Shown one piece after another: positions 25,486 through 37,751 of a DNA stretch of 64,000 nt; the stretch's first letter is position 1; every line of letters starts with the position of its first letter. The notes below the pieces were generated by a model that had not been told where the DNA came from, did not search any database, and saw only the letters and a list, made by a program, of their open reading frames with translations. Position numbers and translations under genes: made by a program. The DNA is taken from contig CACEPG010000004.1 of assembly GCA_902561355.1 (NCBI GenBank), positions 13,133-77,132 on the forward strand. Direction: 5' to 3'. This DNA is from an uncultured Alphaproteobacteria bacterium. Lineage in GTDB: Bacteria > Pseudomonadota > Alphaproteobacteria > HIMB59 > GCA-002718135.

Positions 25486-26570
25486 ATAAAAAAACAAAAT
25501 ATGCAATAATTGGATCAGGAGCAATGGGACGAGAACACATTCGTAACATAAATATAATTGAAGATGCAGAGGTTGTAGCTTTGTCTGATCCTCACAATAA
25601 TTCATTAAAACAAAGTTTAGAATTATTAAATAAAAATATTCCGACCTTCACAAATCACATCGAATTAATGAATTCAAATCTTGCAGATGCTTATATTGTA
25701 TCAAGTCCAAATTTTACCCATATAAATATTTTACAAGATATTATTGTTTCAAAAAAACACCTCTTAATTGAAAAACCTTTATGTACAACTACTGATGATT
25801 GTAAAAAATTTAAGGAACTTACTAAAAATTATCCTGCAGTTATTTGGACAGCTATGGAATACAGATATATGCCCCCAGTAAAAAAAATGATTAAAGCAAT
25901 ACATAATAATAAAATAGGTGATTTAAAAATGTTATCAATTAGAGAACATCGTTTTCCTTTCTTAAAAAAAATAAATGATTGGAATAGATTTTCTATTAAC
26001 TCAGGTGGAACATTAGTAGAAAAATGCTGTCATTTTTTTGATTTAATGAGATTGATTATTAGAAGTGAGCCTGAAAAAATTTATGCTAGCGGTAAACAAG
26101 ATGTAAACCATTTAAATGAAGATTATAATGGCAAAAAACCAGATATAATTGATAATGCTTATGTAATTGTAGATTTTAAAAATGGAGTTCGAAGTCTTTT
26201 AGATTTATGCATGTTTGCAGAAAATTCTAAATATCAAGAAGAGCTCTGTGCAGTTGGTAATTTAGGTAAAATTGAAACCGAAGTTCCTGCAAGTAGATCA
26301 GGTCTAGCTTCTTCAGAACTACGAATTGGATTAAGAGAAAACAATAAAATGGAAACCGAAGTTGTCGAAGTAGATAAAAAAATTTTAGAAGCAGGTCATC
26401 ATCACGGTTCAACTTATTATGAACATTTAGCTTTTTTAAATTCAATTAAAAAAAATACAAAAGCTGAAGTTTCTTTAAATGATGGTCTTATGGCCGTTGC
26501 TATTGGTGAGGCTGCAGAACTGTCAATAAAAGAAAATAGAGTTGTATTTATGAAAGAGTTTAAATTATAA
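25482..26570 (+). CDS. Gfo/Idh/MocA-family NAD(P)-dependent oxidoreductase
   Basis: 362 aa. N-terminal Rossmann motif YAIIGSGAMGREH and an EKP motif (LLIEKPL). 4-nt overlap with the isomerase gene. Confidence 0.88.
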   Translation: MNKKTKYAIIGSGAMGREHIRNINIIEDAEVVALSDPHNNSLKQSLELLNKNIPTFTNHIELMNSNLADAYIVSSPNFTHINILQDIIVSKKHLLIEKPLCTTTDDCKKFKELTKNYPAVIWTAMEYRYMPPVKKMIKAIHNNKIGDLKMLSIREHRFPFLKKINDWNRFSINSGGTLVEKCCHFFDLMRLIIRSEPEKIYASGKQDVNHLNEDYNGKKPDIIDNAYVIVDFKNGVRSLLDLCMFAENSKYQEELCAVGNLGKIETEVPASRSGLASSELRIGLRENNKMETEVVEVDKKILEAGHHHGSTYYEHLAFLNSIKKNTKAEVSLNDGLMAVAIGEAAELSIKENRVVFMKEFKL

Positions 26571-27488
26571 TTTAAAAAACTCTTTTACTGAATTTGCAAT
26601 AAATTCGCTTACTCTCGTATTAGACTCTTCAGTCACACCAGCAATATGAGGTGTAAGTATACAATTTGTATTACTTTTTATACTATTTAAAAAATTTTTT
26701 TGTACTGGCTCGTTATCATATACATCAAGAGCAAATCCCGTTATTAGTTTTTCATCATAAGCTCTTAATAAATCTTCTTCATTAATTATAGAACCTCTTG
26801 AAGAATTAATAATGATGGGTTGTTTTAGCATTTTCTTAAAAACCTCGTAATTCAATAAATTTTTAGTATTTACATTAAGAGGTAAATGGATTGAAATAAT
26901 ATCAGCTAGTTGAAATATCTCCTTTATATCAAGTAACTTAACATCAAATTTATTACCAACACTGGAATCAATAAATGGATCATATGCAATTATTTTAGCA
27001 TTAAATACCTTGGCCAAGATAGATACTTTTTTTGCAATTAAACCAAAACCCAATAAACCAATTGTTTTACCTTGCAATTCTTTTGAAGCAATTGATGTAC
27101 GGGGCCAATTACCTATTGAAGTTTCCTGATGCATTAAAGGGAGATTTTTTAATAAGGATAGGGATGTATTTATTACATATTCTGCGACAGAATCAGCATT
27201 CATACCTGTAGCTGGCTGCACAAAAATGTTATTGCTTTTACAATAATCAGTATCAATATTATCTAAACCGACTCCTAAACGTCCAATAAATTTTAAATTA
27301 GTTGCTTTTTCTAGCACTTCTTTTTTAACTTGAGTTTTATTTCTCACAATTAAAGCATCAAATTTACTAATTATTTTTTTTAACTCATTAGAGTTTGCTG
27401 ATAAATCATGATCAACTGTAACATCAAAATTTATTTTTAGAACTTCTACAAATCTAACTTCCATAAATTCTGTGATCAATATTTTCAT
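26565..27488 (-). CDS. D-isomer-specific 2-hydroxyacid dehydrogenase (PGDH/GyaR-like)
   Basis: 307 aa. NAD motif GLLGFGLIAKKV, plus SSRGSIINEEDL, LDVYDNEP and TPHIAGVT. Confidence 0.88.
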   Translation of the reverse strand: MKILITEFMEVRFVEVLKINFDVTVDHDLSANSNELKKIISKFDALIVRNKTQVKKEVLEKATNLKFIGRLGVGLDNIDTDYCKSNNIFVQPATGMNADSVAEYVINTSLSLLKNLPLMHQETSIGNWPRTSIASKELQGKTIGLLGFGLIAKKVSILAKVFNAKIIAYDPFIDSSVGNKFDVKLLDIKEIFQLADIISIHLPLNVNTKNLLNYEVFKKMLKQPIIINSSRGSIINEEDLLRAYDEKLITGFALDVYDNEPVQKNFLNSIKSNTNCILTPHIAGVTEESNTRVSEFIANSVKEFFKL

Positions 27489-27492
27489 AAAA

Positions 27493-28398
27493 TTATATTT
27501 TCCTTAACTGGATTTGTTTTGTAAAATTTTTAACAGATGAAAACGAAGGTAGGGAATAAATACCTCCATATTTGGTGCATTTTAAAGAAGCAGTGGCAGT
27601 AGCTAATTTCATTGTCTCAATAATAGAATACTTTTTATGTATAAAGGCTGCAAATGCTCCATGGAAAACATCTCCTGCACAATTAGTTTCAACAACTTTT
27701 ATTGCTGGAGGTTTACAATTAAAAATAATACCATTTTCAATCCAATAAACCCCTTTTTTACCCGCAGTGATGGCATAGAATTTATTTTTTAATGAATTCA
27801 TTTTCTTTAATGAACTAATTATTGATTTGGTTTTTGTATATTCGAACGCACCTGTTTCAGAAAAGATAGGATATGAAGCAAGATCTACAATTTGTTTTAT
27901 TTTTGAGGTTAATTTATAATTGTCCAAATCAACAACATGTATTAAATTTTTTTTTTTACAATTTTTAGCAACATAAAGAGAGGCATCAACCCATCGTAAG
28001 TCAGTAATAAAAGTTGTATTTTTACTAAAAGAGATTTTAGGTAATTTTCTATTTTTCAATAATTTTTTTTCATTAAAAGCAGCTAGAAGTCTTTCACCTT
28101 GCTTATCTTCATAAACATAACTTTGTGATGTTTGAGCTCCTTTAATTGTTATAGAATCTTTGTATTTAATTTTAAATTTATTCAACTCTCCTGTTAAAAA
28201 TTTAGACACATCATCATCTCCAAACCTACCAATAAATGAAGTGTTTATTCCAAGTTGTTTTATAGTAAAACAAGCTACAGCAGCTGATCCCCCAAGTCTC
28301 TTTTCAATTCCTTTAGCTAATATTTTTATGGGAGTTTTAGGAAATGAATCAATTTTAATGATATGATCTAGAAAAATTGAACCAACTGAATAAATCAT
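27493..28398 (-). CDS. PfkB-family carbohydrate kinase
   Basis: 301 aa. N-terminal GGSAAVA-type motif (RLGGSAAVAC) and the C-terminal PfkB signature VETNCAGDVFHGAFA. Confidence 0.85.
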   Translation of the reverse strand: MIYSVGSIFLDHIIKIDSFPKTPIKILAKGIEKRLGGSAAVACFTIKQLGINTSFIGRFGDDDVSKFLTGELNKFKIKYKDSITIKGAQTSQSYVYEDKQGERLLAAFNEKKLLKNRKLPKISFSKNTTFITDLRWVDASLYVAKNCKKKNLIHVVDLDNYKLTSKIKQIVDLASYPIFSETGAFEYTKTKSIISSLKKMNSLKNKFYAITAGKKGVYWIENGIIFNCKPPAIKVVETNCAGDVFHGAFAAFIHKKYSIIETMKLATATASLKCTKYGGIYSLPSFSSVKNFTKQIQLRKI

Positions 28399-28418
28399 AG
28401 TTTCTTATAAAGAAAAAA

Positions 28419-28988
28419 TTAAAGGTACGAAACCAAACCTATTTTTTTCCTAAATCGATCTCTTATTGTTACAGGATTAAGCGGTATTGGTTTAACTGGT
28501 ACATTTCCTGATTTAATCTTAGATATTATAACATAAGAATTATTTTTATCAGAAAGTGCTTTCTGTAAGTTTTCACTAGTTTCTTCTCCTGAGCATTGAA
28601 TAACATTTTGGCATCCTGAGCCTTTTGCAACATCCTTCAATGAAGTACGCTCACCAGTAAAAGTTTTTTGATCACCAGTAGAACCATAAGATGCGTTATC
28701 AATTATTAATAAGGTATAATTAGAAGGCGCTCTATTACCTATCGTAGCAAGTGTATTCATATTCATTAATACAGATCCATCCCCATCTATACTAATAACA
28801 TTTTTATTTATTGATAATGCTAGCCCTAATCCAATGGAAGATGATAATCCCATACTTCCAAGCATGTAAAAATAATTTGGTTGATCATTGATTTGATACA
28901 ATTCTTGAGATGGAAGACCAATATTACAAATTACTAATTCTTCTTGAATAGTTTTTTGTAATAATTTTAAAAGTTCAAATCGATTCAT
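28419..28988 (-). CDS. comE: Sulfopyruvate decarboxylase beta subunit (ThDP-binding; phosphonopyruvate decarboxylase is the alternative)
   Basis: 189 aa. ThDP motif GDGSVLMNMNTLATIG...N. Split alpha/beta arrangement with a 4-nt overlap. Confidence 0.7.
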   Translation of the reverse strand: MNRFELLKLLQKTIQEELVICNIGLPSQELYQINDQPNYFYMLGSMGLSSSIGLGLALSINKNVISIDGDGSVLMNMNTLATIGNRAPSNYTLLIIDNASYGSTGDQKTFTGERTSLKDVAKGSGCQNVIQCSGEETSENLQKALSDKNNSYVIISKIKSGNVPVKPIPLNPVTIRDRFRKKIGLVSYL

Positions 28989-29485
28989 TGATCATCTTTC
29001 ATTAAATCAAAATTACAAAGAATGGCTACTGGACCCTCTATTACTTTTGCATGTTTTGATTGTGTTTCTATTTTATGAATATCGCTTTCTTTATTACAAT
29101 GAAGTATAGGTATGCGAAGTGTATTAAGAATTTCTTCAGTTACACTAGCCATTGCACCTTGTGCTCCTACAGGTTCACCTGGCGTACCTCTATAACTAAT
29201 TAAAAATACTATTGGCATTTGATACAATTGCAAAAGAGAGACGATGGAATTTACAGAATTACCAATACCAGTATTTTGCATCATTATACAAGGAAGTTTA
29301 TTTCCTAAATAAGCTCCTGCACAAATTCCCATACCTTCTTCTTCTCTAGGTATTGCTGAATAAAATACTTCTTTGTCTGCCTCTAAGATTGTAATCATAT
29401 TAGCTAAAAGTTTACACGGGACACTTAAGAAAAAATCTACTCCACCATCTTTAAGTTTAGATATTATTTTTTGGCTAATTTTCAT
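28985..29485 (-). CDS. comD: Sulfopyruvate decarboxylase alpha subunit (ThDP pyrimidine-binding domain)
   Basis: 166 aa. Reads SVPCKLL...PREEEGMGICAGAYLGNK...MQNTGIGN, with the size expected of ComD. Confidence 0.7.
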   Translation of the reverse strand: MKISQKIISKLKDGGVDFFLSVPCKLLANMITILEADKEVFYSAIPREEEGMGICAGAYLGNKLPCIMMQNTGIGNSVNSIVSLLQLYQMPIVFLISYRGTPGEPVGAQGAMASVTEEILNTLRIPILHCNKESDIHKIETQSKHAKVIEGPVAILCNFDLMKDDQ

Positions 29486-29546
29486 TTATTCCCTAATAAT
29501 TTAAAGCAATAATAAAACAAGAATTTAATAATTGAAATTGATTTAA

Positions 29547-30452
29547 TTATATTTTTCTTTCTCTATGTTTAATAGTGATTTTTTGTTTAACATAAATAAT
29601 TATACCACCTAAAACAATAAACAATGCGCCAGGAAATAATTGATCAATAGGCCACTCTTTAAAGAATATCCAACCTAAAATTAAAGCAAAAAATATTTCA
29701 ATATAGTCAAAAGGCATAATTTTACTAAGTTCTGCTTTTCTTGAGCCATAAATTAATAATAAAACACCTGAACCACCTGCCAAACCCATTATAAACAATA
29801 TAAGCAAATCATATAAACTTTTAAAATTTTCCCACATATTAAATGTAATAACTAAGAGTATTGCACAAATTAAAGTTCCAATATTGGCGTAAAGATTAAT
29901 TAATGGCACAGGGGTATCATTTGAAAAATTTAAAGCTGTTACCCTAGCAAGAGAATAACCAAAAGCAGCCATTACTGGAAGTAACATATAATAATTAAAA
30001 CTTTCAGACCAAGGTTGCATAATAAAAATTATGCCTACGAAACCTGTTAATACAGCTAATGATTTATACCATCCAAATTTTTCACCTAGTAGTGGTATTG
30101 CTAATAATGTAATCATGATTGGTCCTGTGTACTCCATTGTTGCAACCAAAGCGTAGGGTAAATAAAGATAAGAGGTATATAAACATAGTTGCGCAAAAGA
30201 CATAATTAGTCCTCTTGCTAAGCCAAAGCGCCATCTTTTTATTACTAATTTTTTTCCACTAGCATGCCAGTCTTGTGAAAAATACAATGCAATAAAACAT
30301 GGTATCATTCCAAACAGATTTCTAAAAACTGATAATTGTGCAGCTGGATAATCTTCTCTAAGGTATTTTATGGCAATGCCCATACAGTCTAATAAAAATA
30401 ATCCAGATAAGGAAAGTACAACTGCTATAAATAAATTACTTTTCACCCACAA
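29547..30452 (-). CDS. EamA/DMT-superfamily transporter
   Basis: 301 aa, about 10 TM helices. Non-ATG start (TTG at 30452 or GTG at 30446) overlapping the 3' end of the upstream ATPase gene. Confidence 0.75.
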   Translation of the reverse strand: MWVKSNLFIAVVLSLSGLFLLDCMGIAIKYLREDYPAAQLSVFRNLFGMIPCFIALYFSQDWHASGKKLVIKRWRFGLARGLIMSFAQLCLYTSYLYLPYALVATMEYTGPIMITLLAIPLLGEKFGWYKSLAVLTGFVGIIFIMQPWSESFNYYMLLPVMAAFGYSLARVTALNFSNDTPVPLINLYANIGTLICAILLVITFNMWENFKSLYDLLILFIMGLAGGSGVLLLIYGSRKAELSKIMPFDYIEIFFALILGWIFFKEWPIDQLFPGALFIVLGGIIIYVKQKITIKHRERKI

Positions 30453-31435
30453 TTAACACAACATTGATCAACCCAATGATCTGGTTCAACTTGAATTAAA
30501 CCCATTTCTATATTTCCTTCTTTACAATCATGCGTTGGGTTTGGACATCTTGTTCTAAAGACACAGCCTGAAGGAGGATCCATTGCGCTAGGAATTTCTC
30601 CCTTTAACTCTATTGCAGTAGATTTATTTTCAGGATCTATTGATGGAATAGAAGATAATAAAGCTTTAGTATAAGAATGACGAGGATTAGAGAATAATTT
30701 TCTTGAAGGTGCCATCTCAACTATATGACCTAAATACATTACAGCAACAATATCACAAACGTGAGCCACAACACTTAAGTCATGACTAATAAATAAATAT
30801 GTTAAATTTAATTCATTTTGTAACTGTTTAAGTAAATTTAAAATATCTGCTTGTATTGAAACATCTAATGCTGCCACACTTTCATCAGCAACTATAAATT
30901 TTGGATTACTTACAAGAGCTCTTGCAATAGAAATACGTTGTCTTTGACCTCCTGAAAATGCATGGGGATATCTTCTTAAATGCTCTAAATTTAATCGACA
31001 TTTTGAAGCAATTTCTCTAACTTTTTCATCAGTTTCTTGACGTGAATTTGTAATCTTCATCACCTCTAAAGGTTCTGCAATTATATCCCTAACTGTCATT
31101 CTTGGGCTAAGAGCAGCGTATGGATCTTGAAATATAAGTTGTGCTTTTTTTCTATAATCTTTCATTTCTTTTGCAGTAATTCTTGTTAAATCAAAATCTC
31201 TTTCATCATCATGAAAAATCACATTTCCTTGACTAATTTTGTTGGCACCTAATATTGCTCTGCCTAGAGTAGTTTTGCCTGAACCAGACTCACCAACTAA
31301 ACCAAAGAAAGATCCTTTTTTAATCTTAATATTAATATTATTAACTGCTTTTATTTTTTGTTTTTTTGATAAAAAATTTTCTTGATAATCAAAAGATACA
31401 GATAAATTATTTACTGATACTATATTTTCACTCAT
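30443..31435 (-). CDS. Opp/Dpp-type ABC transporter ATP-binding protein (OppF/DppF-like) with a Cys-rich C-terminal extension
   Basis: 330 aa. Walker A GESGSGKTT, signature FSGGQRQR, Walker B FIVADESVAALD, and C-terminal CVFRTRCPNPTHDCKEG...QCCVNCG. Confidence 0.9.
   Translation of the reverse strand: MSENIVSVNNLSVSFDYQENFLSKKQKIKAVNNINIKIKKGSFFGLVGESGSGKTTLGRAILGANKISQGNVIFHDDERDFDLTRITAKEMKDYRKKAQLIFQDPYAALSPRMTVRDIIAEPLEVMKITNSRQETDEKVREIASKCRLNLEHLRRYPHAFSGGQRQRISIARALVSNPKFIVADESVAALDVSIQADILNLLKQLQNELNLTYLFISHDLSVVAHVCDIVAVMYLGHIVEMAPSRKLFSNPRHSYTKALLSSIPSIDPENKSTAIELKGEIPSAMDPPSGCVFRTRCPNPTHDCKEGNIEMGLIQVEPDHWVDQCCVNCG
30450..30565. repeat. 116-nt near-identical tract, copy 1 (3' end of the OppF-like gene)
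   Basis: Hand alignment to 31446-31561 gives 4 mismatches in 116 nt. The remainder of the two paralogous genes is much more diverged. Confidence 0.9.
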
Positions 31436-31438
31436 AAC

Positions 31439-32419
31439 TTAACCGCAATTAACACAACATTGATCAACCCAATGTCCTGGTTCAACTTCAATTAAACCCA
31501 TTTCTATATTTCCTTCTTTACAATCATGCGTTGGGTTTGGACATCTTGTTCTAAATACACATGCGCTTGGTCTGTCTAAAGGGCTTGGTATATTTCCTGG
31601 TATTGGTTTTAAAGGTGCATCAAGATTATTAATATCAGGTAGAGCGTTTAAAAGACCTTTAGTATATGGATGTTTAGGATTTTTTAAAATTTCATTAACA
31701 GGTCCTTTTTCTACTACACTACCTAAATACATCACCGCTACATCATCTGCTACTTGAGCAATTACACCTAAATCATGAGTTATAAAAATAACACCCATAT
31801 TAAATTCTTTGATTATATCTTTCATTAAATTGATAACTTGTGCTTGTATAGTTACATCAAGTGCAGTGGTTGGCTCATCAGCTAACAATAATTTAGGCAT
31901 TGTAGATAATGCCATAGCAATCATTGCACGTTGTCTCATACCTCCAGATAATTCAAATGCATACTGGTTAAATCTTTTTTCTGCATCAGCAATCCCTACT
32001 CTGTTCAACATATCTATAGATATATTTTTTGCTTCCTTTTTGTCTAGCGGCTTATGAAGCATTAATTGCTCAACCATTTGGTAACCAATTTTAATTGCTG
32101 GAGCAAAGCTGGCCATTGGTTCTTGAAAAATCATTGAAACTTTTCCACCTCTAATTTTTTTTAAGTCATTTTTAGAAGTAAATTTTAAAACATTTTCATC
32201 ATCAATTATTATTTCCGCAGTATCGTTATAAATTGTATTTCCTGGATTAAGTTGCATGATTGATTTAGCAGTAACTGATTTACCAGAACCTGACTCACCA
32301 ACAATCCCCAAAACCTTACCTTGATCTAATGAAAGAGATACATTTTCTATTGCAGTAATGCGCCCTTCATCAGTATCAAATTTAACATCAAGGTTGTTTA
32401 TCTCTAATAGATGAGCCAT
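31439..32419 (-). CDS. Opp/Dpp-type ABC transporter ATP-binding protein (OppD/DppD-like) with a Cys-rich C-terminal extension
   Basis: 326 aa. Walker A GESGSGKSV, signature LSGGMRQR, Walker B LLLADEPTTALD, and the same C-terminal CVFRTRCPNPTHDCKEG...QCCVNCG. Confidence 0.9.
   Translation of the reverse strand: MAHLLEINNLDVKFDTDEGRITAIENVSLSLDQGKVLGIVGESGSGKSVTAKSIMQLNPGNTIYNDTAEIIIDDENVLKFTSKNDLKKIRGGKVSMIFQEPMASFAPAIKIGYQMVEQLMLHKPLDKKEAKNISIDMLNRVGIADAEKRFNQYAFELSGGMRQRAMIAMALSTMPKLLLADEPTTALDVTIQAQVINLMKDIIKEFNMGVIFITHDLGVIAQVADDVAVMYLGSVVEKGPVNEILKNPKHPYTKGLLNALPDINNLDAPLKPIPGNIPSPLDRPSACVFRTRCPNPTHDCKEGNIEMGLIEVEPGHWVDQCCVNCG
31446..31561. repeat. 116-nt near-identical tract, copy 2 (3' end of the OppD-like gene)
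   Basis: See 30450-30565. Confidence 0.9.
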
Positions 32420-32421
32420 AA

Positions 32422-33582
32422 TTATTTGGTTTTATGTGGATCTGCTGCATCTCGAAGACCATCTCCGACATATACAAATGTTAAAATTAAAACAACTAAG
32501 AAAAAAACAGGTATGAAATACCACTGATAGTTTAACAAAACATCTGCCTTAGTTGCGTTTTGTAAAAGTACACCCAATGAATTTACAGGCTCTCTTAAAC
32601 CTAGCCCAATAAAACTAAGAGCTGTTTCTGATAAAAGCATGTACGGAAAGCTTATTACGAGATCAACTATAATATAACTTGTAAAACTTGGTAAAAGATG
32701 TCGAACAATAATATGTGTTGATGATGCACCACACATTTGAGCAGCTAAAATATATTCTTGACTTCTCTCACTTAGTAAATGTGTTCGAACACGCCTTGCT
32801 AATGTTGGCCATGAAATCAAACCTAGCAAACAGGATATAAAGAAAAATCTTAGTTCAGAACTCCATTCAAGAGGTGCAAAAGCTGCTAAACACATAAATA
32901 AAGGTATGGGTGGTACTGTTCGTATAGCATCAGTAAACATTTGCAGCAGACTATCAATCCACCCGCCATAATATCCTGAGATACCTCCAATAATTAAAGA
33001 TAGAACAAAAGAAATAAAAACTCCCAATGTTCCGACTGCAAGTGAAATATAAATTGCACTTAAGGTTCTACTAAACAAATCCTTTCCTGCTTTATCTGTA
33101 CCAAAAAGATGAATACCTCCTTCTTCAACACCAAATAAATGTGTATCAAATGATAATCCTGGAATAGTAAAATCTAATCTCTTACCAGGGAGATTAATTT
33201 TATAATTAAAATATTTATATTCCCAACCTTTAACAAAAAAATAAACATAACGTCTTTTCTCAGTATCAATTTTATATACCCATCTAAAATTTGTATCCGC
33301 ACCTCTATATTTGCTTAAAGTATGAAGAAAAGGTCTTGGTGAAAAACCATTTTCATCCCAAAACATAGGAATCTGAGGAGCTCCATTTTCATAATCTTTG
33401 TCACGACCAGCAATTGTTGGATCATATGGAGAGAGAAAACCTGAAAATAAACTGCACACAATCATAAATAACAATATTGAGCCAGCAATCATCGCAGAAC
33501 GATTTCCAAAGAAACGAGTTCTTACCAATTGCATTTGGGTAGCAGTATAATATGCTTCTTTCTTTTTTGAACTAACCTCCAC
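32422..33582 (-). CDS. Opp/Dpp-type ABC transporter permease (OppC/DppC-like)
   Basis: 386 aa. Long loop after TM1, BPD_transp_1 core, and overlap with the upstream permease gene. Confidence 0.88.
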   Translation of the reverse strand: MEVSSKKKEAYYTATQMQLVRTRFFGNRSAMIAGSILLFMIVCSLFSGFLSPYDPTIAGRDKDYENGAPQIPMFWDENGFSPRPFLHTLSKYRGADTNFRWVYKIDTEKRRYVYFFVKGWEYKYFNYKINLPGKRLDFTIPGLSFDTHLFGVEEGGIHLFGTDKAGKDLFSRTLSAIYISLAVGTLGVFISFVLSLIIGGISGYYGGWIDSLLQMFTDAIRTVPPIPLFMCLAAFAPLEWSSELRFFFISCLLGLISWPTLARRVRTHLLSERSQEYILAAQMCGASSTHIIVRHLLPSFTSYIIVDLVISFPYMLLSETALSFIGLGLREPVNSLGVLLQNATKADVLLNYQWYFIPVFFLVVLILTFVYVGDGLRDAADPHKTK

Positions 33583-34585
33583 CCATAACTCCTTTCCTTA
33601 TTCTTGGATCCATTATTGCTAAAATTATATCAGTTATAAAATTTACAAATACTATTGTTGCAGTTAATAAAAAAATAATAGCGCCAGCTAATTGCTGATC
33701 ATTAGATCTAGCCAAAGCCTCTATCAATAATGCGCCAGCTTCAGTTAAAATTAAAATCAATGCAACAACTGGAAGAGCACTAAATATTCTATTTAAATCA
33801 AAACCAATGGAATTGATTACTGGTCCAAGTGAGTGTTTTGCTGGGTAACGCCATAATAAACTCATACCTGATATTCCTCTAGCTCTTGCTGCCATTACAT
33901 ACAGTTTATCATTTTCATCTAACATTAATGCTCTTACGGTTTGAAGTGCAAAAGCAGTGGCATTCCATCCAAGAACAAAAATTGGTAGCCAAGCTCTGCT
34001 AAGAAAATCTTTTGCCTTATCAGCCGACCATGGAGCATTTTCATATTCTTGGGAAAATAAACCGGTCATCGTATCTCCAAAATATACTGTCATAAAAAGC
34101 ATAATACAAAGTGCTACTAAAAAATTTGGTAAAGCTATACCAAGATAACTAACAAATTTAAGAGTCTGATCTAAAGAAGCATATTTTGTCGTGGCGGAAA
34201 TAATACCAACTGGTATCGCTATTAAATAAGAAAAAATTAATGCTACTAAACATATAGTAAGTGAGAGAACAAACCTTCCACTAAGAAGTTCATTAATACT
34301 CATCCGAAGAATACAACTATCTCCAAAATCTTGTCTAACAACAATATCTGAAACCCATTTTCCATATCTATAAAAAAAAGGCTTATCTAAACCTAGTCGA
34401 ACTTTTTCAGCTTCAATATCTTCAAATGTTATCTGGGAACCTTGTGTATTTTTAAATGCTAAATATCTTTCTGCACATGTACCAGGAACTAATTCCATTA
34501 ATGAAAAAACTATAAAACAAACTATGAGCAATGTAACAATAGCTAAAAAAGCTCTGGTCAATGTGAATTGAATAAAATTAATCAT
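33572..34585 (-). CDS. Opp/Dpp-type ABC transporter permease (OppB/DppB-like)
   Basis: 337 aa. The N-terminus FTLTRAFLAIVTLLIV...FSLMELVPG is typical of DppB/OppB, and the C-terminus reads DILAIMDPRIR. Confidence 0.9.
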   Translation of the reverse strand: MINFIQFTLTRAFLAIVTLLIVCFIVFSLMELVPGTCAERYLAFKNTQGSQITFEDIEAEKVRLGLDKPFFYRYGKWVSDIVVRQDFGDSCILRMSINELLSGRFVLSLTICLVALIFSYLIAIPVGIISATTKYASLDQTLKFVSYLGIALPNFLVALCIMLFMTVYFGDTMTGLFSQEYENAPWSADKAKDFLSRAWLPIFVLGWNATAFALQTVRALMLDENDKLYVMAARARGISGMSLLWRYPAKHSLGPVINSIGFDLNRIFSALPVVALILILTEAGALLIEALARSNDQQLAGAIIFLLTATIVFVNFITDIILAIMDPRIRKGVMGGG

Positions 34586-34630: not shown

Positions 34631-34655
34631 AAGCGGCAATACAAAATTGCCGCTT
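34631..34655 (-). terminator. Intrinsic terminator/attenuator hairpin between the binding-protein gene and the permease genes
   Basis: aagcggcaat-acaaa-attgccgctt. On the minus-strand RNA it is followed by uuucuuuuuuu. Confidence 0.75.
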
Positions 34656-34678
34656 TTAAACATATTTATTAACTTATC

Positions 34679-36724
34679 TTATTCGTCTAACCACCACTGA
34701 GTAGCTAAATACGGATAAGTTCTGTAATACTCATAAGAAGTTGTTTTGAATTGTGTAAAGTTTTTCAAAGCATTTCTATGATATGTTGGGAAAGGTGCTT
34801 TTACAGTACCAATTAACAGAGTTTGCTCTGTTAACATAGTTGTAATTTTTTGACCCCACTCATTTGACTCAGCAGTACCTAATTCATATGATTGGAATTT
34901 ATCAATTCCATCACTTAAATCATATACCCACTTAGGAGGTTCTACACCATCAGATCCACCACTATCAATATAAGCTCCCCATAACATTCCTTGTGTATGG
35001 TTAAAGTAATTACCAAAAGGCGCTTTAAATGTTTCAGGATTACCTGCTATAATCGCTAATGGTTGTCCTTTGTCCCATGCATGAACATCAAGAGCATTAG
35101 ATGATTGAGATCCACGATATTCATCTGGAGTTACCTCTTTAAAAGAAGTTTTAACCCCTACATCGTTCCACATACGAGCTACTAATTCAACTTCAACACC
35201 ACCTATACCTTGAGTAGCATAGTCAATGTTCATTGCAAAAGGTGCTCCGTTTGGAAGTTCTCTAAATCCATCTCCATCAACATCTTTTAACCCAACTTCA
35301 TCTAGAAGTGCATTAGCAGTATCTGGATCGTATTGAGTCATATGCATTTTGATTTCATCAGGAACAAAGTCAGGTGCAGGTGAAATACCTACAAACTGCT
35401 CTACCACACCCAAACCGTAGTAAGCTACATCATTGATCTCATTTCTATCAAGTGCAATTGACATTGCTTGACGGAAACGAATGTCACCATAAACTTTACG
35501 TTTTTCCAAATCTGGATGAGTAACGTTAAAGCTAAATAGTGCTGCTCCACAACCTGGATTAATTTGAAGGTTATATCCACCAGCTTCTGCTCCATCTAGT
35601 AATTGAGGTGCAGATTCAAGTTGTACTGATTGTGATTTATAATCAACTTCACCATTAACAAGTTTTAGAAGTCTAATCTCATTTTCATTGATATATCTTT
35701 CATTTTGATAATCAATATATGGTAATTGATTTCCAGCAGTATCAACTTGGTGGAAATATGGATTAGCTGCATACACTCTTCCTTCAGTCGTATCTTCAAT
35801 AGTCATATACGCTTCTAAAGAAGGGTAAGCTGCATATTCTAAACCACCAACTAAATCAGGGTTTCTCAACATAGGAGTAGGAGTATCAGTCCAACCAGAG
35901 TTACCATAATAAGCTGCTAAAGCATCCCATCCATTTTCAAAACCAAGTGCTTGTGCATTAGCATCAGCATTTGAATCTATTTCTGGATGAAACTGTTCTA
36001 AGAAGTGTGCAGGTATAAATGCTTGGTTATAAGACCATGCAAGTGTTGCTAAAAGTCCTGGGAACGGAGATGGTAAGTTAAATCTTACAGTTGTATCATT
36101 AACTACATCTACGGTCATAGGCTCACCACCAACTAGAAGATAAGGATATGGTTTTTCTCTGATGTTTGTATTCATCATCATATCTTCATACCAAAACTCA
36201 ACATCTCTTGCTGTAAACGGCTCACCATTTGACCACTTATGACCTTTTCTCAGAGTAAAAGTCAATTCAGTGAAATCACTATTCCATGAGTAATCTTTTG
36301 CTACGTTTGGAACAATAGTTGATAAGTCATCAGCAAAACGAACTAAGTTTACATGACGAGTTGATAGCATATCAGAAGTACCTGCTTCTGTTGCATTTGA
36401 TAAAAAGTTAATTGTGCCCCCATATGATCCAATTGAATCATAAGGAACAATAACTAGCGGTTCATCAGGTAAACGATCAGCTACTCCTGCTAACCCTTTG
36501 TTACCTTGAATTGTTGCATTAATACTCGCAATATTCGGATTTTCAGAAAAGCTCATAGTACATCCGGCTGCACTTTCAAATTCTGATAATTCATATTGCT
36601 GAGGATATTTTCCACCTGTAAGTCCATCGTTCATAGTTGAACCTGAACATGCTGCATAAGAGTTTACACTCCACAACACAGTAGATGATGAAAATACCAA
36701 TGCTAAAAATAATTTTTTAAACAT
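34679..36724 (-). CDS. ABC transporter periplasmic substrate-binding protein, family 5, large (681 aa); ligand unknown
   Basis: Signal peptide MFKKLFLALVFSSSTVLWSVNSYA, SBP_bac_5-like core (HKWSNGEPFTARDVEFWYED), and a GAGGAG Shine-Dalgarno sequence 8 nt upstream. Confidence 0.85.
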   Translation of the reverse strand: MFKKLFLALVFSSSTVLWSVNSYAACSGSTMNDGLTGGKYPQQYELSEFESAAGCTMSFSENPNIASINATIQGNKGLAGVADRLPDEPLVIVPYDSIGSYGGTINFLSNATEAGTSDMLSTRHVNLVRFADDLSTIVPNVAKDYSWNSDFTELTFTLRKGHKWSNGEPFTARDVEFWYEDMMMNTNIREKPYPYLLVGGEPMTVDVVNDTTVRFNLPSPFPGLLATLAWSYNQAFIPAHFLEQFHPEIDSNADANAQALGFENGWDALAAYYGNSGWTDTPTPMLRNPDLVGGLEYAAYPSLEAYMTIEDTTEGRVYAANPYFHQVDTAGNQLPYIDYQNERYINENEIRLLKLVNGEVDYKSQSVQLESAPQLLDGAEAGGYNLQINPGCGAALFSFNVTHPDLEKRKVYGDIRFRQAMSIALDRNEINDVAYYGLGVVEQFVGISPAPDFVPDEIKMHMTQYDPDTANALLDEVGLKDVDGDGFRELPNGAPFAMNIDYATQGIGGVEVELVARMWNDVGVKTSFKEVTPDEYRGSQSSNALDVHAWDKGQPLAIIAGNPETFKAPFGNYFNHTQGMLWGAYIDSGGSDGVEPPKWVYDLSDGIDKFQSYELGTAESNEWGQKITTMLTEQTLLIGTVKAPFPTYHRNALKNFTQFKTTSYEYYRTYPYLATQWWLDE

Positions 36725-36732
36725 ATTATTTT

Positions 36733-36738
36733 CTCCTC
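36733..36738 (-). promoter_or_regulatory. Shine-Dalgarno sequence (GAGGAG) for the family-5 binding-protein gene
   Basis: The complement of ctcctc lies 8 nt upstream of the ATG at 36724. Confidence 0.6.
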
Positions 36739-36842
36739 TTTAAATTTAAAGTAATTCTAAACTCATGACATGAATAGGCAAAAAACACAAAAATTAAATA
36801 CTAAATTATAGTAATTTTATTGAAAAAAATGTGTATTCATTC

Positions 36843-37751
36843 TTAGAGCCAAACTGGGTTTGTCCAGGCAAAATTCCCAGAATCATCAGCAATACTAACC
36901 CTAAACCACTCCGAAGGATAGTCTGTGAGATCAAATTCAGCGTTTGTAATATTTTTTCCATTCTGACTCATAGATTTGGCTCCTTGGCCAACTAAACACA
37001 CTTGGTTTGAAGGTGAACATTGGATATTTACTTTACTATTATTCATTTCAAACTCAAAAATTTCAATTCCAGTAGTTGAATAATATTGCCCATTTTTTAA
37101 AGCGTTTAAAATAGATATTTCGGATAAATTATCTGCTGCAACCATCACCCATCCACCTCCAAAATCTTGCATTCTAAAATGTGAGTCATCAGTAGCAGTT
37201 AAAAATATTTTATTATTTTCTTGTAATAAATAATCTGCTGTCGCAGTACCAAAACCACGTTGAGCTTCTAAATGGCAAGAATGATTATAAATTTCAACTC
37301 CATGAGCATGACTTACAGAAAGACATTCATCAAACGTTAGAGTGTACCATTCTGGATGAGCAATTGTAACAAACGCACCTGCTTCAATTGCTCTTTGAAC
37401 TAGATGAGGTGCTGTTTCTTTTTCATCAGCACATTTAAAATCTAATGGCAAACCATTTGCAACAATATGCCAAAGACCATCCCTAATATATTTTTTACCC
37501 TTACAATGAAGTTCTGCTGAGGGGATAGTGATAAAATCTTTTTGATTAAGATTTTTTGTTTCTAATACTGTTTCAGCTGCGAATTTACTCCCTTGCCATA
37601 AGTGATCTGAAAGACATGTAAAATCATAACCTATTTCTTTATACTTATTAATTACTTCTTGTGGATTTAAAGCTCCGTCTGAATGATTTGAATGTCCATG
37701 TAAATTACCTCTAAAGTATTGATGTGTATTTTTTGAAGGTAATAAATGCAT
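36843..37751 (-). CDS. PHP-domain metal-dependent phosphoesterase (CehA/McbA-like)
   Basis: 302 aa with the motifs GNLHGHSNHSDG, LSDH, IAHPEW and TDDSH (PHP His/Asp clusters). Confidence 0.75.
   Translation of the reverse strand: MHLLPSKNTHQYFRGNLHGHSNHSDGALNPQEVINKYKEIGYDFTCLSDHLWQGSKFAAETVLETKNLNQKDFITIPSAELHCKGKKYIRDGLWHIVANGLPLDFKCADEKETAPHLVQRAIEAGAFVTIAHPEWYTLTFDECLSVSHAHGVEIYNHSCHLEAQRGFGTATADYLLQENNKIFLTATDDSHFRMQDFGGGWVMVAADNLSEISILNALKNGQYYSTTGIEIFEFEMNNSKVNIQCSPSNQVCLVGQGAKSMSQNGKNITNAEFDLTDYPSEWFRVSIADDSGNFAWTNPVWL

What the first reader, a model, noticed from the sequence alone, without database searches (positions are those of the whole stretch)
26565..37751. Eleven co-directional, tightly packed genes tie a family-5 (Opp/Dpp-type) ABC importer to a DMT carrier, ComDE, a PfkB kinase and a 2-hydroxyacid dehydrogenase
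Seen in the sequence:
- All of these genes lie on the minus strand with gaps of 0-120 nt and several overlaps: PHP phosphoesterase, 681-aa SBP5, two permeases, two ATPases, DMT carrier (overlapping the last ATPase), comD, comE, PfkB kinase and D-2-hydroxyacid dehydrogenase.
- The only strong hairpin is the one after the SBP gene.

Established knowledge:
- Family-5 binding proteins also carry non-peptide ligands such as opines and nickel.
- A phosphatase, a dehydrogenase and ComDE are the last three steps of the methanogen coenzyme M route (phosphosulfolactate to sulfolactate to sulfopyruvate to sulfoacetaldehyde).

Inference: the importer may deliver a sulfonated or phosphorylated C3 compound, or a conjugate of one, rather than peptides. 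The dehydrogenase next to ComDE is a candidate sulfolactate dehydrogenase from a family different from ComC/SlcC/SlcD. That would be an undescribed bacterial sulfolactate-type uptake and degradation operon.
Basis: partly seen in the sequence, partly recalled or inferred. Interest (0 to 1): 0.6.

Follow-up and report, generated by a model that had tools for sequence, protein, structure and literature searches.

The report
Sulfoquinovose breakdown island with neighbouring sugar importer
In an abundant marine bacterium (HIMB59/AEGEAN-169 type), the eleven genes are three neighbouring modules, not one operon: part of a route that probably breaks the algal sulfosugar sulfoquinovose down to sulfite and acetyl-CoA, and a separately inherited sugar-type importer whose cargo is unknown.

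Summary
Eleven minus-strand genes are packed with overlaps or gaps of 2-118 nt, and there is one strong, conserved hairpin after the binding-protein gene.

- ComDE scores as sulfopyruvate decarboxylase. Xsc, Pta and AprBA lie in the same window. No PEP mutase or ComA was found.
- The "PfkB kinase" is closest to E. coli sulfofructose kinase YihV.
- The "2-hydroxyacid dehydrogenase" is closest to SlcC, the known (S)-sulfolactate dehydrogenase. SlcC is itself a PGDH-like 2-hydroxyacid dehydrogenase, so this is not a new family.
- These two genes belong with the convergent sulfoquinovosidase SqgA and an SftI-like isomerase, which points to sulfoquinovose glycolysis rather than sulfolactate uptake.
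- Cultured roseobacters (Tropicimonas aquimaris) carry the same chain in one run, with the aldolase and aldehyde dehydrogenase that HIMB59 islands lack.

The Opp-type importer has a sugar-clade binding protein. In relatives it travels with a DMT carrier and a mutarotase, with or without ComDE, so its tie to sulfonates rests on neighbourhood only. The PHP protein is a generic phosphoesterase.

This is a new variant of known pathways in a lineage not reported to use sulfoquinovose.

The parts
36843..37751 (-). Cytoplasmic PHP-family metal-dependent phosphoesterase with a C-terminal beta-sandwich; substrate unknown
   Evidence: NF038032 scores 82 bits against a cut-off of 80. There is no PDB match by sequence. 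The AlphaFold model has pLDDT 90.8, and its best Foldseek matches are 3E38, TM0559, RNase AM and Cv1693. Homologues at 55-60% identity in other taxa sit in unrelated contexts. In G214 and genus g312 a cytoplasmic sulfatase takes its place.
34679..36724 (-). Periplasmic family-5 (cluster C) substrate-binding protein, 681 aa, of the sugar-binding clade
   Evidence: Pfam SBP_bac_5 scores 182 bits, and a signal peptide is present. It aligns over its full length with T. maritima 5IPW (227 bits) and with SPH1118, the pectin-oligosaccharide binder (203 bits). DppA, OppA and NikA reach only about E 1e-10. SPH1118 binds anionic oligosaccharides and not peptides (PMC9314435).
34629..34657 (-). Conserved hairpin plus T-run between the binding-protein gene and the first permease gene (attenuator or mRNA stabiliser typical of ABC operons)
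   Evidence: Detected in the scan. The stem AAAAGCGGCAAT/ATTGCCGCTTTT is invariant in about 45 distinct relatives' spacers, while the loop and flanks vary.
30443..34585 (-). OppB-, OppC-, OppD- and OppF-like permeases and ATPases of an Opp/Dpp-type ABC importer
   Evidence: Pfam BPD_transp_1, OppC_N, ABC_tran and oligo_HPY, with NCBIfam matches. They are 85-97% identical in relatives.
29547..30452 (-). EamA/DMT carrier whose start overlaps the end of the OppF-like gene by 10 nt
   Evidence: Pfam EamA scores 80 bits. It travels with the Opp genes in every variant, including those without ComDE.
29486..29546 (-). 61-nt spacer before comD, at the point where relatives carry a GalM-like mutarotase gene; the roughly 45 nt just upstream of comD are conserved and may hold an internal promoter or leader
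28419..29485 (-). comD and comE: the two subunits of TPP-dependent sulfopyruvate decarboxylase, with a 4-nt overlap
   Evidence: TIGR03845 scores 156.3 bits against 147.95, and TIGR03846 scores 224.4 against 221.5. The phosphonopyruvate decarboxylase model reaches only 96 and 128 bits. No PEP mutase was found. ComE is present in 87 of 116 genomes of the family.
27493..28398 (-). YihV-type 6-deoxy-6-sulfofructose kinase candidate
   Evidence: The best PDB match is 7AG6, sulfofructose kinase, at 140 bits and E 1e-39; ribokinase reaches 51 bits. It is 32% identical to E. coli YihV. D13, K27, S95, R138, D162 and D244 are conserved; N109 aligns with A (residue roles from PMC8006165).
26565..27488 (-). 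SlcC-type (S)-sulfolactate dehydrogenase candidate (a short PGDH-like D-2-hydroxyacid dehydrogenase)
   Evidence: JGI names 78-79% identical homologues '(S)-sulfolactate dehydrogenase'. The best plasmid hit lies in the canonical hpsN/slcHFG/slcC/comC/tauE cluster of Paracoccus versutus. Blastp gives 209-251 bits to the SlcC clade, 156-179 to the genome's own paralogues, and 131 to E. coli SerA.
24109..26570 (+). Convergent partner genes outside the finding: an SftI-like sulfoquinovose isomerase (24109-25485) and the GH188 NAD-dependent sulfoquinovosidase SqgA (25482-26570)
   Evidence: NF048012 is the only NCBIfam hit for the isomerase, at 286 bits against a cut-off of 700. The second gene matches 8QC3 and 8QC2 (ArSqgA and FlSqgA) at 374-377 bits, E about 1e-111; the PDB codes were confirmed in PMC10755693. 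These genes co-vary with the kinase and dehydrogenase.
16687..23935 (-). CUT1-type sugar ABC importer (binding protein, two permeases, MalK-like ATPase) and a GH31 alpha-glucosidase-like enzyme; a CUT1 system accompanies the sulfosugar module in relatives
   Evidence: The binding protein shows no specific likeness to any solved structure.
56027..57796 (-). Xsc, sulfoacetaldehyde acetyltransferase, the enzyme that uses the ComDE product
   Evidence: TIGR03457 scores 951 bits against a cut-off of 676. It is kept at 88-89% identity in relatives that lack the sulfosugar genes.
43306..44217 (+). Phosphate acyltransferase (Pta/Ptb-type), which would turn acetyl phosphate from Xsc into acetyl-CoA
   Evidence: NF006045 scores 287 bits against 282.
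47964..50293 (+). AprB and AprA, adenylylsulfate reductase, the likely sink for sulfite
   Evidence: TIGR02060 scores 189 bits against 136, and TIGR02061 scores 1009 against 642.

Best explanation
The eleven genes are three adjoining modules of a plastic organosulfur and sugar island in a HIMB59/AEGEAN-169-type alphaproteobacterium.

Module 1 (26565-28398) is a YihV-type sulfofructose kinase plus an SlcC-type (S)-sulfolactate dehydrogenase. It works with the convergent SftI-like isomerase and the SqgA sulfoquinovosidase, and probably with the CUT1 sugar importer beyond them.

Module 2 (28419-29485) is ComDE, sulfopyruvate decarboxylase.

Module 3 (29547-37751) is a DMT carrier, an Opp/Dpp-type ABC importer with a sugar-clade binding protein, and a PHP phosphoesterase.

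Proposed route:
1. A sulfoquinovose glycoside is imported.
2. SqgA releases sulfoquinovose.
3. The isomerase converts it to sulfofructose.
4. The kinase phosphorylates it to sulfofructose-1-phosphate.
5. An aldolase not encoded in the island splits this into DHAP and (S)-sulfolactaldehyde.
6. An unlinked aldehyde dehydrogenase oxidises the aldehyde to (S)-sulfolactate.
7. SlcC oxidises that to sulfopyruvate.
8. ComDE decarboxylates sulfopyruvate to sulfoacetaldehyde and CO2.
9. Xsc converts sulfoacetaldehyde to acetyl phosphate and sulfite.
10. Pta makes acetyl-CoA, and AprBA disposes of the sulfite.

Shown here are the gene identities by homology, their co-variation across genomes, and the same chain as a single gene run in other bacteria. 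Inferred are every enzyme activity, the aldolase and aldehyde-oxidation steps, and which importer carries the sulfosugar.

Module 3 most likely imports a sugar or glycoside, probably an anionic one, rather than peptides. Its functional link to the sulfonate route is not established.
For: Gene identities:
- ComD and ComE exceed the curated cut-offs for sulfopyruvate decarboxylase and score about 1.7-fold higher than on the phosphonopyruvate decarboxylase model.
- Xsc, Pta and AprBA are in the window.
- The kinase's best solved relative is E. coli sulfofructose kinase, with the sulfonate-binding K and R and the catalytic D conserved.
- The oxidoreductase next door is SqgA, and its neighbour's only NCBIfam hit is the SftI sulfoquinovose isomerase.
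- The dehydrogenase is nearest to SlcC-type enzymes that sit in canonical sulfolactate clusters.

Co-variation:
- The kinase, dehydrogenase, SqgA and isomerase are gained and lost together across 80 relatives.
- All four lack orthologues anywhere in five genomes of the variant type.

Independent 'Rosetta' clusters:
- One alphaproteobacterial genome (L148) has, in a single co-directional run: kinase, LacD/YihT-type aldolase, SftI-like isomerase, SqgA, mutarotase, GabD-like aldehyde dehydrogenase, SlcC-like dehydrogenase, ComD, ComE and an Opp/Dpp-type ABC system.
- Tropicimonas aquimaris CCUG 60524 has the same nine enzyme genes contiguous, with Xsc 5 kb away.
- Of 80 SlcC-type loci, 20 carry the kinase, 17 the aldolase and 12 ComDE.

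Prevalence in the family: ComE in 87, SqgA in 70 and SBP5 in 89 of 116 genomes.

Module 3 as a sugar importer:
- The nearest characterised relative of the binding protein binds acidic oligosaccharides and not peptides.
- The module always travels with an aldose 1-epimerase in relatives.
Against: - No sulfofructose-phosphate aldolase (YihT or SqiA type) and no linked sulfolactaldehyde dehydrogenase were found in any HIMB59-type island. The genome's only class II aldolase lies in an inositol cluster, and its class I FBA lies in another sugar operon. The genome is only 67.8% complete.
- The isomerase match is far below the curated cut-off (286 bits against 700).
- N109 of the kinase's K-R-N triad does not align.
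- The tree does not resolve the dehydrogenase inside the SlcC clade. The AU test merely fails to reject that placement (p = 0.38).
- About ten species keep Opp-DMT-mutarotase-ComDE plus an aldo-keto reductase but lack the kinase, SlcC, SqgA and the isomerase. ComDE therefore has a source of sulfopyruvate that this model does not explain.
- The GH31 enzyme is alpha-glucosidase-like, not YihQ-like. The CUT1 binding protein shows no specific likeness to any solved structure.
- No transcript data could be obtained.
Confidence: 0.6

Rival explanations
1. All eleven genes form one sulfosugar unit. The Opp-type importer and DMT carrier bring in sulfoquinovose, a sulfoquinovosyl glycoside or another anionic sulfosugar, which then feeds the kinase, SlcC and ComDE route.
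For: - The Opp genes adjoin ComDE in most genomes of the genus, with overlapping or near-touching genes.
- A different Opp/Dpp-type system directly follows ComDE in the complete sulfo-EMP run of L148.
- The closest characterised relative of the binding protein binds anionic oligosaccharides.
- A mutarotase sits between DMT and ComD in relatives.
- A cytoplasmic sulfatase replaces PHP upstream of the binding protein in some genomes.
Against: - The Opp-DMT-mutarotase unit, with the binding protein 91-94% identical, occurs in genus g312 with no ComDE, SqgA or kinase. In G498 it occurs with an aldo-keto reductase and an enolase-superfamily dehydratase but no ComDE.
- In L012 and L019 the sulfosugar genes and ComDE are present without Opp.
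- A CUT1 importer co-varies with the sulfosugar genes instead.
- Orthologous Opp systems at 57-60% identity in other families have no sulfonate genes beside them.
Confidence: 0.25
2. The importer delivers a C3 sulfonate (sulfolactate, DHPS or cysteate) or a conjugate of one. The PHP phosphatase, the dehydrogenase and ComDE then act like the last steps of the coenzyme M route.
For: - Genomes of the variant type keep Opp, DMT, ComDE and Xsc while lacking every sulfosugar enzyme. Something other than sulfoglycolysis must supply sulfopyruvate there.
- Sulfolactate to sulfopyruvate to sulfoacetaldehyde is an established route.
Against: - The kinase is YihV-like and has no role in C3 sulfonate breakdown.
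- A mutarotase travels with the importer.
- The binding protein is a large sugar-clade member, whereas the C3-sulfonate importer seen here in a canonical cluster is a tripartite tricarboxylate system.
- ComA is absent, and the PHP protein is a generic phosphoesterase found in unrelated contexts.
- The importer also occurs without ComDE.
Confidence: 0.1
3. The Opp-type system is an ordinary di- or oligopeptide importer that merely lies next to the sulfonate genes in a streamlined genome.
For: - The five-component architecture, with the oligo_HPY domain on both ATPases, is that of Opp/Dpp systems.
- One orthologous system in another family lies beside a gamma-glutamyltranspeptidase gene.
- The modules assort independently.
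Against: - Peptide binders (DppA, OppA) are remote, at about E 1e-10, against 1e-59 to 1e-66 for the SPH1118/5IPW group and 1e-24 for chitin-oligosaccharide and alpha-galactoside binders.
- SPH1118 does not bind peptides.
- An aldose 1-epimerase follows the DMT carrier downstream of the Opp genes in all relatives examined.
Confidence: 0.1
4. ComDE is a phosphonopyruvate decarboxylase, or part of a biosynthetic route to a phosphonate or a coenzyme M-like product, rather than a catabolic sulfopyruvate decarboxylase.
For: The two subunits also match the phosphonopyruvate decarboxylase model (96 and 128 bits), and their scores exceed the sulfopyruvate cut-offs only narrowly.
Against: - No PEP mutase and no ComA were found in five genomes, including a 96%-complete one.
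- Xsc, Pta and AprBA are in the same island.
- ComDE sits next to SlcC-type genes in many other bacteria.
Confidence: 0.03

Closest known systems
[quoted passage not shown] AK01 (with SqgA)
   Same: - A sulfoquinovosidase is present (here the GH188 type, as in Arthrobacter).
- A sulfoquinovose isomerase candidate is present.
- A YihV-like sulfofructose kinase has the sulfonate-binding K27 and R138 and the catalytic D244 conserved.
   Different: - The isomerase is of the SftI type known from the transaldolase pathway, not YihS (no YihS homologue).
- The island has no YihT- or SqiA-type aldolase, no sulfolactaldehyde reductase or dehydrogenase and no regulator.
- The C3 product is not excreted but appears to be mineralised in the same cell.
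The 'Xsc pathway' for sulfolactate and DHPS in roseobacters (HpsNOP, SlcD, ComDE, Xsc), and SlcC/ComC of Chromohalobacter salexigens
   Same: The chain runs from sulfolactate to sulfopyruvate, then through ComDE to sulfoacetaldehyde, then through Xsc to acetyl phosphate and sulfite (PMC11382572). The dehydrogenase is of the SlcC kind, a PGDH-like D-2-hydroxyacid dehydrogenase.
   Different: - No HpsN, HpsO or HpsP, no SlcD or ComC, and no TRAP or TTT sulfonate importer lie next to it.
- The dehydrogenase is only 38-42% identical to SlcC-clade members and forms its own clade.
- The feed-in is a sulfosugar module.
Single-run sulfo-EMP plus SlcC-ComDE clusters found here in Tropicimonas aquimaris CCUG 60524 (L156) and an unnamed alphaproteobacterium (L148)
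   Same: They share the same enzyme families in the same logic: kinase, SftI-like isomerase, SqgA, mutarotase, SlcC-type dehydrogenase, ComD, ComE and nearby Xsc. L148 also has an Opp/Dpp-type ABC system directly after ComE.
   Different: - Those clusters add a LacD/YihT-type aldolase and a GabD-like aldehyde dehydrogenase, which the HIMB59 islands lack.
- Identities to the window's proteins are only 31-58%.
- L148's binding proteins are 526 aa and only about 23% identical to the 681-aa one.
Cluster C sugar-binding proteins of Opp-type importers: SPH1118 of Sphingomonas sp. A1 (pectin oligosaccharides), MelB/AgpA alpha-galactoside binders of Rhizobiaceae, Vibrio chitin-oligosaccharide binder
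   Same: The window's protein is a large (more than 600 aa) family-5 binding protein with the extra domain. It aligns over its full length with SPH1118 at 203 bits.
   Different: The ligand is unknown, no residue-level comparison of the binding cleft was made, and the genomic partners (DMT, mutarotase, PHP or sulfatase) differ.

Membership tests
Sulfopyruvate decarboxylase ComDE (TIGR03845/TIGR03846) | Both subunits score above the curated equivalog cut-offs | tested here: met
   Alpha subunit: 156.3 bits against 147.95. Beta subunit: 224.4 bits against 221.5. Both margins are narrow.
Sulfopyruvate decarboxylase ComDE (TIGR03845/TIGR03846) | Split TPP enzyme: an N-terminal (PYR) domain subunit and a C-terminal (PP) domain subunit encoded by adjacent genes | tested here: met
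   TPP_enzyme_N is on the 166-aa protein (26.0 bits, just under the gathering score of 26.8). TPP_enzyme_C is on the 189-aa protein (66.5 bits). The genes overlap by 4 nt.
Sulfopyruvate decarboxylase ComDE (TIGR03845/TIGR03846) | Metabolic context uses sulfoacetaldehyde and provides no phosphonopyruvate | tested here: met
   Xsc, Pta and AprBA are in the window. PEP mutase was not found in 5 genomes, including a 96%-complete one.
Sulfopyruvate decarboxylase ComDE (TIGR03845/TIGR03846) | Decarboxylates sulfopyruvate in preference to phosphonopyruvate or pyruvate | not testable with these tools
   This needs an enzyme assay.
(S)-sulfolactate dehydrogenase SlcC (EC 1.1.1.310) | D-2-hydroxyacid dehydrogenase fold of the short PGDH-like kind | tested here: met
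   2-Hacid_dh_C scores 156 bits and 2-Hacid_dh 94 bits. The best PDB match is 1WWK. SlcC itself belongs to this group (PMC6303947).
(S)-sulfolactate dehydrogenase SlcC (EC 1.1.1.310) | Falls in the clade of SlcC proteins from canonical sulfolactate clusters | tested here: inconclusive
   Best hits are SlcC-clade proteins (209-251 bits, against 156-179 for the genome's own paralogues). The deep fork of the tree is unresolved. The AU test does not reject a joint clade (p = 0.38).
(S)-sulfolactate dehydrogenase SlcC (EC 1.1.1.310) | Encoded beside enzymes that make sulfolactate or use sulfopyruvate | tested here: met
   In relatives and in L148, L156 and ten further SlcC-type loci (12 of 80), the gene lies beside ComDE. 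In this window the kinase gene lies between the two.
(S)-sulfolactate dehydrogenase SlcC (EC 1.1.1.310) | Oxidises (S)-sulfolactate and not 3-phosphoglycerate | not testable with these tools
   This needs an enzyme assay.
Sulfofructose kinase YihV | PfkB fold with the GXGD catalytic aspartate | tested here: met
   PfkB scores 121 bits. D244 of the E. coli enzyme aligns with D243 in the motif NCAGD.
Sulfofructose kinase YihV | K27-R138-N109 sulfonate recognition triad | tested here: inconclusive
   K27 and R138 are conserved. N109 aligns with A107, and an N lies two residues further on (triad from PMC8006165).
Sulfofructose kinase YihV | Closer to YihV than to other PfkB kinases | tested here: met
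   7AG6 scores 140 bits, against 94 for an unnamed sugar kinase and 51 for ribokinase. No NCBIfam kinase model exceeds 98 bits.
Sulfo-EMP pathway as a whole | Dedicated sulfofructose-1-phosphate aldolase (YihT class I or SqiA class II) | tested here: not met
   There is no YihT homologue in the genome. The only class II aldolase lies in an inositol cluster, and the class I FBA lies in another sugar operon. The genome is 67.8% complete, and none of the relatives' islands examined by similarity to the query proteins shows one; G214 itself was not searched for YihT- or SqiA-type aldolases.
Sulfo-EMP pathway as a whole | Sulfoquinovosidase at the gateway | tested here: met
   The SqgA (GH188) match is E 8e-112.
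Opp/Dpp (PepT, family 5) ABC importer | Family-5 binding protein, two permeases, and two ATPases with the oligo_HPY C-terminal domain | tested here: met
Opp/Dpp (PepT, family 5) ABC importer | Binds peptides | not testable with these tools
   Sequence similarity favours sugar binders. The ligand itself is untested.
Coenzyme M biosynthesis (ComA-ComB-ComC-ComDE) | Phosphosulfolactate synthase ComA and phosphatase ComB are present | tested here: not met
   ComA (PF02679) was not found in 5 genomes. The PHP protein has a PHP phosphoesterase fold unrelated to ComB.

The most novel reading that the evidence does not exclude
The Opp-DMT-mutarotase unit, with a PHP phosphoesterase or a cytoplasmic sulfatase upstream and an aldo-keto reductase (plus, in G498, an enolase-superfamily dehydratase) downstream, is an uptake and processing module for anionic sugars, sulfonated or sulfated. 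In the genomes that keep only this unit plus ComDE and Xsc, it feeds sulfopyruvate through an undescribed oxidative sulfosugar route that starts with the aldo-keto reductase. That would be the first Opp-family sulfosugar importer. It would also give HIMB59/AEGEAN-169 two different ways to mineralise algal sulfosugars.
Probability: 0.15. Interest if true: 0.7.

Novelty: new variant of a known kind. Interest (0 to 1): 0.45.

Why it matters
Sulfoquinovose is made on a scale of about 10 billion tonnes a year (as cited in PMC10755693 and PMC12890257). Recent work names Alteromonadaceae and Roseobacteraceae as its main marine consumers (PMC12780224). That survey used an identity cut-off of 54% to a roseobacter SqgA, which may have missed these genes.

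If the island works as read, a streamlined open-ocean lineage also takes the sulfosugar all the way to sulfite and acetyl-CoA in one cell. AEGEAN-169 reaches up to 6% of cells in the South Pacific Gyre (PMC11366302). The comparative-genomics paper on the clade (PMC10308909) mentions no sulfonate metabolism. Such a lineage should then be counted in ocean sulfur and carbon budgets.

The single-run cluster in cultured Tropicimonas aquimaris offers a direct laboratory test of the combined pathway. The finding also corrects an easy annotation error: short 'phosphoglycerate dehydrogenase-like' genes beside comDE are SlcC-type sulfolactate dehydrogenases.

Tried and rejected
- **Phosphonate reading of ComDE.** Rejected: there is no PEP mutase and the score on that model is lower.
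- **Coenzyme M-like route with PHP as the ComB analogue.** Rejected: ComA is absent, the PHP fold is generic, and homologues sit in unrelated contexts.
- **GH31 as a YihQ-type sulfoquinovosidase.** Not supported: it is alpha-glucosidase-like, reaches only 119 bits on the YihQ-type model, and is 22.5% identical to YihQ.
- **CUT1 binding protein as a relative of a solved sulfoquinovose binder.** No such match was found.
- **Inferring the Opp ligand from orthologues in other alphaproteobacterial families.** Their neighbourhoods are uninformative: histidine kinases, a gamma-glutamyltranspeptidase, an MFS carrier.
- **Class II aldolase as the missing sulfofructose-phosphate aldolase.** It belongs to an iolC-iolB cluster.
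- **Placing the dehydrogenase by phylogeny.** The deep node is unresolved, with long branches and biased composition.
- **Literature.** No paper in the library joins HIMB59 with sulfoquinovose, and the only one joining sulfo-EMP with Xsc and sulfopyruvate does so in an overview legend. The library covers open-access papers and preprints only.

Full report
**Where the window comes from.** The window has about 29% G+C. Its closest relatives are single-cell and metagenome genomes labelled HIMB59, MarineAlpha5, Pelagibacteraceae or uncultured Alphaproteobacteria. The organism is therefore a streamlined marine alphaproteobacterium of the HIMB59/AEGEAN-169 type. Its assembly is 1.29 Mb in 58 contigs and 67.8% complete.

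**The observation.** Spacing runs from an 11-nt overlap to a 118-nt gap. The single strong terminator-like hairpin lies between the binding-protein gene and the first permease gene. Its stem is invariant in about 45 different relatives' spacers, while the loop and flanks drift. This fits the usual device that lets an ABC operon make more binding protein than membrane parts. The arrangement ComDE-DMT-OppFDCB-SBP5 recurs in most of 80 species-level relatives.

**ComDE and its surroundings.**
- Both subunits pass the curated cut-offs for sulfopyruvate decarboxylase, narrowly, and score well above the phosphonopyruvate decarboxylase model.
- The same 64-kb window holds Xsc (951 bits against a cut-off of 676), a Pta-type phosphate acyltransferase, AprB and AprA, CysQ, a Tpa-like omega-aminotransferase next to alanine dehydrogenase, and a DddP-like protein.
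- This is an organosulfur island, and the product of ComDE, sulfoacetaldehyde, has its consuming enzyme at hand.
- PEP mutase and ComA were not found in the window's genome, in a 96%-complete genome of the same genus, or in three further relatives.
- The phosphonate and coenzyme M readings are therefore set aside.

**The kinase and the dehydrogenase.**
- The kinase's best solved relative is E. coli sulfofructose kinase YihV (140 bits; ribokinase reaches 51).
- Aligned with YihV, it keeps D13, K27, S95, R138, D162 and the catalytic D244. N109 of the K-R-N sulfonate triad aligns with alanine (residue roles from PMC8006165).
- The dehydrogenase looks like a short phosphoglycerate dehydrogenase. 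The known (S)-sulfolactate dehydrogenase SlcC is exactly that kind of enzyme, placed within or beside the SerA clade (PMC6303947).
- JGI already labels homologues at 78-79% identity '(S)-sulfolactate dehydrogenase'.
- The best match among plasmids lies in Paracoccus versutus. There it sits between a tripartite tricarboxylate transporter and an Ldh_2 (ComC-type) gene, next to hisD-like (HpsN-type), SDR, alcohol dehydrogenase and TauE genes. That is a canonical sulfolactate/DHPS cluster.
- Blastp scores to SlcC-clade proteins (209-251 bits) exceed those to the genome's own paralogues (156-179) and to E. coli SerA (131).
- The tree leaves the deep fork open, and the AU test only fails to reject a joint clade (p = 0.38).
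Membership in the SlcC clade proper remains unproven.

**The neighbours that explain the kinase.**
- Converging on the dehydrogenase gene are two plus-strand genes.
- The Gfo/Idh/MocA protein matches the NAD-dependent sulfoquinovosidases ArSqgA and FlSqgA at 374-377 bits (PDB codes checked in PMC10755693).
- Its upstream partner's only NCBIfam hit is the SftI sulfoquinovose isomerase, well below the cut-off.
- Beyond them lie a CUT1 sugar ABC system and a GH31 enzyme of alpha-glucosidase type.
- Sulfoglycolysis yields (S)-sulfolactaldehyde and then (S)-sulfolactate (PMC12421959), which is the substrate of SlcC.
- The chain from sulfoquinovose to Xsc can therefore be written with genes from this window, apart from two steps.

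**Co-variation across genomes.** The kinase, dehydrogenase, SqgA and isomerase are present or absent together. Five genomes of the variant lacking them have no orthologue of any of the four anywhere, yet keep Xsc at 88-89% identity.

**Independent clusters that spell out the pathway.**
- A genome from another alphaproteobacterial family (L148) has one co-directional run. It holds a YihV-like kinase, a LacD/YihT-type aldolase, an SftI-like isomerase, SqgA, a mutarotase, a GabD-like aldehyde dehydrogenase, an SlcC-like dehydrogenase, ComD, ComE, two family-5 binding proteins, two permeases and a fused ATPase.
- Tropicimonas aquimaris CCUG 60524 has the nine enzyme genes contiguous, with Xsc 5 kb away.
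- Among 80 SlcC-type loci, 20 carry the kinase, 18 the isomerase, 17 the aldolase, 12 ComDE, 11 SqgA and 10 the aldehyde dehydrogenase.
- These clusters support the functional chain and supply the two steps missing from the HIMB59 islands.

**The gaps.**
- No YihT, YihS or YihR homologue exists in the window's genome.
- The only class II aldolase belongs to an inositol cluster.
- The class I FBA lies in a sugar ABC, Gfo and aldo-keto reductase operon on another contig. In one relative (L019) that operon adjoins the ComDE locus.
- At least eight aldehyde dehydrogenase genes exist, but none is linked.
- The aldolase and aldehyde-oxidation steps are therefore inferred, not shown.

**The Opp-type module.**
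- The 681-aa binding protein has a signal peptide.
- It aligns end to end with T. maritima 5IPW and with SPH1118, which binds acidic pectin oligosaccharides and not peptides. Peptide and nickel binders are remote.
- In relatives a GalM-like aldose 1-epimerase sits between the DMT gene and comD. This window has lost it cleanly, keeping the conserved 45 nt upstream of comD.
- Within the family, SBP5 occurs in 89, ComE in 87 and SqgA in 70 of 116 genomes, but the modules assort independently:

| Genomes | Arrangement |
|---|---|
| Genus g312 | sulfatase, SBP5 (91-94% identical), OppBCDF, DMT, mutarotase; no ComDE or sulfosugar gene |
| G498 | PHP, SBP5, OppBCDF, DMT, mutarotase, aldo-keto reductase, enolase-superfamily dehydratase; no ComDE |
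| About ten species ('type II') | Opp, DMT, mutarotase, ComDE, aldo-keto reductase |
| L012 | a PotD-type ABC system in place of Opp |
| L019 | the CUT1 system and GH31 directly before ComD |

- Orthologous Opp systems at 57-60% identity in other families have no sulfonate genes nearby.
- The stable unit is therefore SBP5-OppBCDF-DMT-mutarotase, a sugar import module. ComDE is an insert between it and whatever lies next.
- Whether that sugar is a sulfosugar remains open. A second Opp/Dpp system after ComE in L148 and the alternation of sulfatase and PHP upstream hint at anionic sugars. Independent assortment, and the CUT1 system that tracks the sulfosugar genes, argue against a necessary link.

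**The PHP protein.** It has no match to solved structures by sequence. A confident model (pLDDT 90.8) resembles two-domain PHP phosphoesterases of unknown function, RNase AM and the pAp phosphatase Cv1693. Homologues at 55-60% identity in SAR116-type and other bacteria lie in unrelated neighbourhoods. Nothing ties it to phosphosulfolactate.

**Comparison with what is known.** Every enzyme family here is known, and the second half of the route is textbook for roseobacters. Three things are new:
- The combination: an SftI-type isomerase with a YihV-type kinase and SqgA, joined to SlcC-ComDE-Xsc for full mineralisation.
- Its streamlined form, without a dedicated aldolase or aldehyde dehydrogenase.
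- Its host.

The AEGEAN-169 genomics paper never mentions sulfonates. No paper in the library links HIMB59 to sulfoquinovose. A 2025 study attributes marine sulfoquinovose use mainly to Alteromonadaceae and Roseobacteraceae.

**Earlier notes of this scan.** Another covers the aprBA region.

**Verdict.** This is a new variant of a known kind, of moderate interest.

Noticed in passing
window 38868-45119: A likely taurine-type module lies just upstream of the finding. On the minus strand are an AptA-like omega-aminotransferase (585 bits; a Tpa candidate) and alanine dehydrogenase. They are followed by an agmatinase-like arginase-family protein and a DUF1989 (urea-amidolyase-associated-like) protein. 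Divergent from these are a Pta-type acyltransferase and a second EamA carrier. The ureohydrolase hints at a guanidino-sulfonate such as taurocyamine as a source of taurine.
   Followed up: partly
window 29486-29546; L006:8403-9452: Relatives carry a 349-aa GalM-like aldose 1-epimerase between the DMT gene and comD. In this window it is cleanly missing, yet the roughly 45 nt upstream of comD stay conserved. No mutarotase homologue was found elsewhere in this 67.8%-complete genome.
   Followed up: yes
L141:16099-17634 (G214); L234:5051-6580 (G515): In some genomes a 509-511-aa cytoplasmic sulfatase (PF00884 plus SGSH_C, with a CGPSR motif and no signal peptide) occupies the position upstream of the binding-protein gene that PHP holds in the window. 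Two different ester hydrolases thus alternate beside a near-identical importer.
   Followed up: partly
L234, L235 (genus g312): The binding protein in another genus of the family is 91-94% identical to the window's. That is closer than many copies within the window's own genus (64-90%), which suggests recent transfer of the Opp-DMT-mutarotase unit between genera.
   Followed up: no
L141:7585-9654 (G214); L026:5400-7506: Some relatives have two extra Gfo/Idh/MocA oxidoreductase genes (353 and 329 aa) inserted between the OppF-like gene and the DMT gene.
   Followed up: partly
L236:3414-5704 (G498): Here the importer-mutarotase unit is followed by an aldo-keto reductase and an enolase-superfamily (MR_MLE_C) protein. 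This looks like the start of an oxidative, non-phosphorylative sugar route.
   Followed up: no
G000:C23:190-2092 and 7434-8144: A YihU-like HIBADH-family protein lies next to DhaK. Its best model is sulfolactaldehyde 3-reductase, at 275 bits against a cut-off of 348, and it is 37% identical to E. coli YihU. About 5 kb away is a distant paralogue (28%) of the SftI-like isomerase.
   Followed up: no
G000:C20:13674-19862; L019:12934-19100: The genome's only class I fructose-bisphosphate aldolase sits inside an operon with a sugar ABC system, a Gfo/Idh/MocA oxidoreductase and an aldo-keto reductase. In relative L019 this operon lies directly beside the ComDE/SqgA locus, which makes it a candidate for the missing sulfofructose-phosphate aldolase.
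   Followed up: partly
L156 (Tropicimonas aquimaris CCUG 60524, NZ_JBHTJT010000007.1:371831-392742); L148: A cultured roseobacter carries kinase, aldolase, isomerase, SqgA, mutarotase, aldehyde dehydrogenase, SlcC, ComD and ComE as one contiguous run, with Xsc nearby. The papers searched did not describe such a combined cluster.
   Followed up: partly
window 51500-54580: A Rieske-type oxygenase (weakly GbcA-like) and a DddP-like M24 protein (372 bits, below the cut-off of 600) lie between AprBA/CysQ and Xsc. This adds to the organosulfur and osmolyte character of the island.
   Followed up: no
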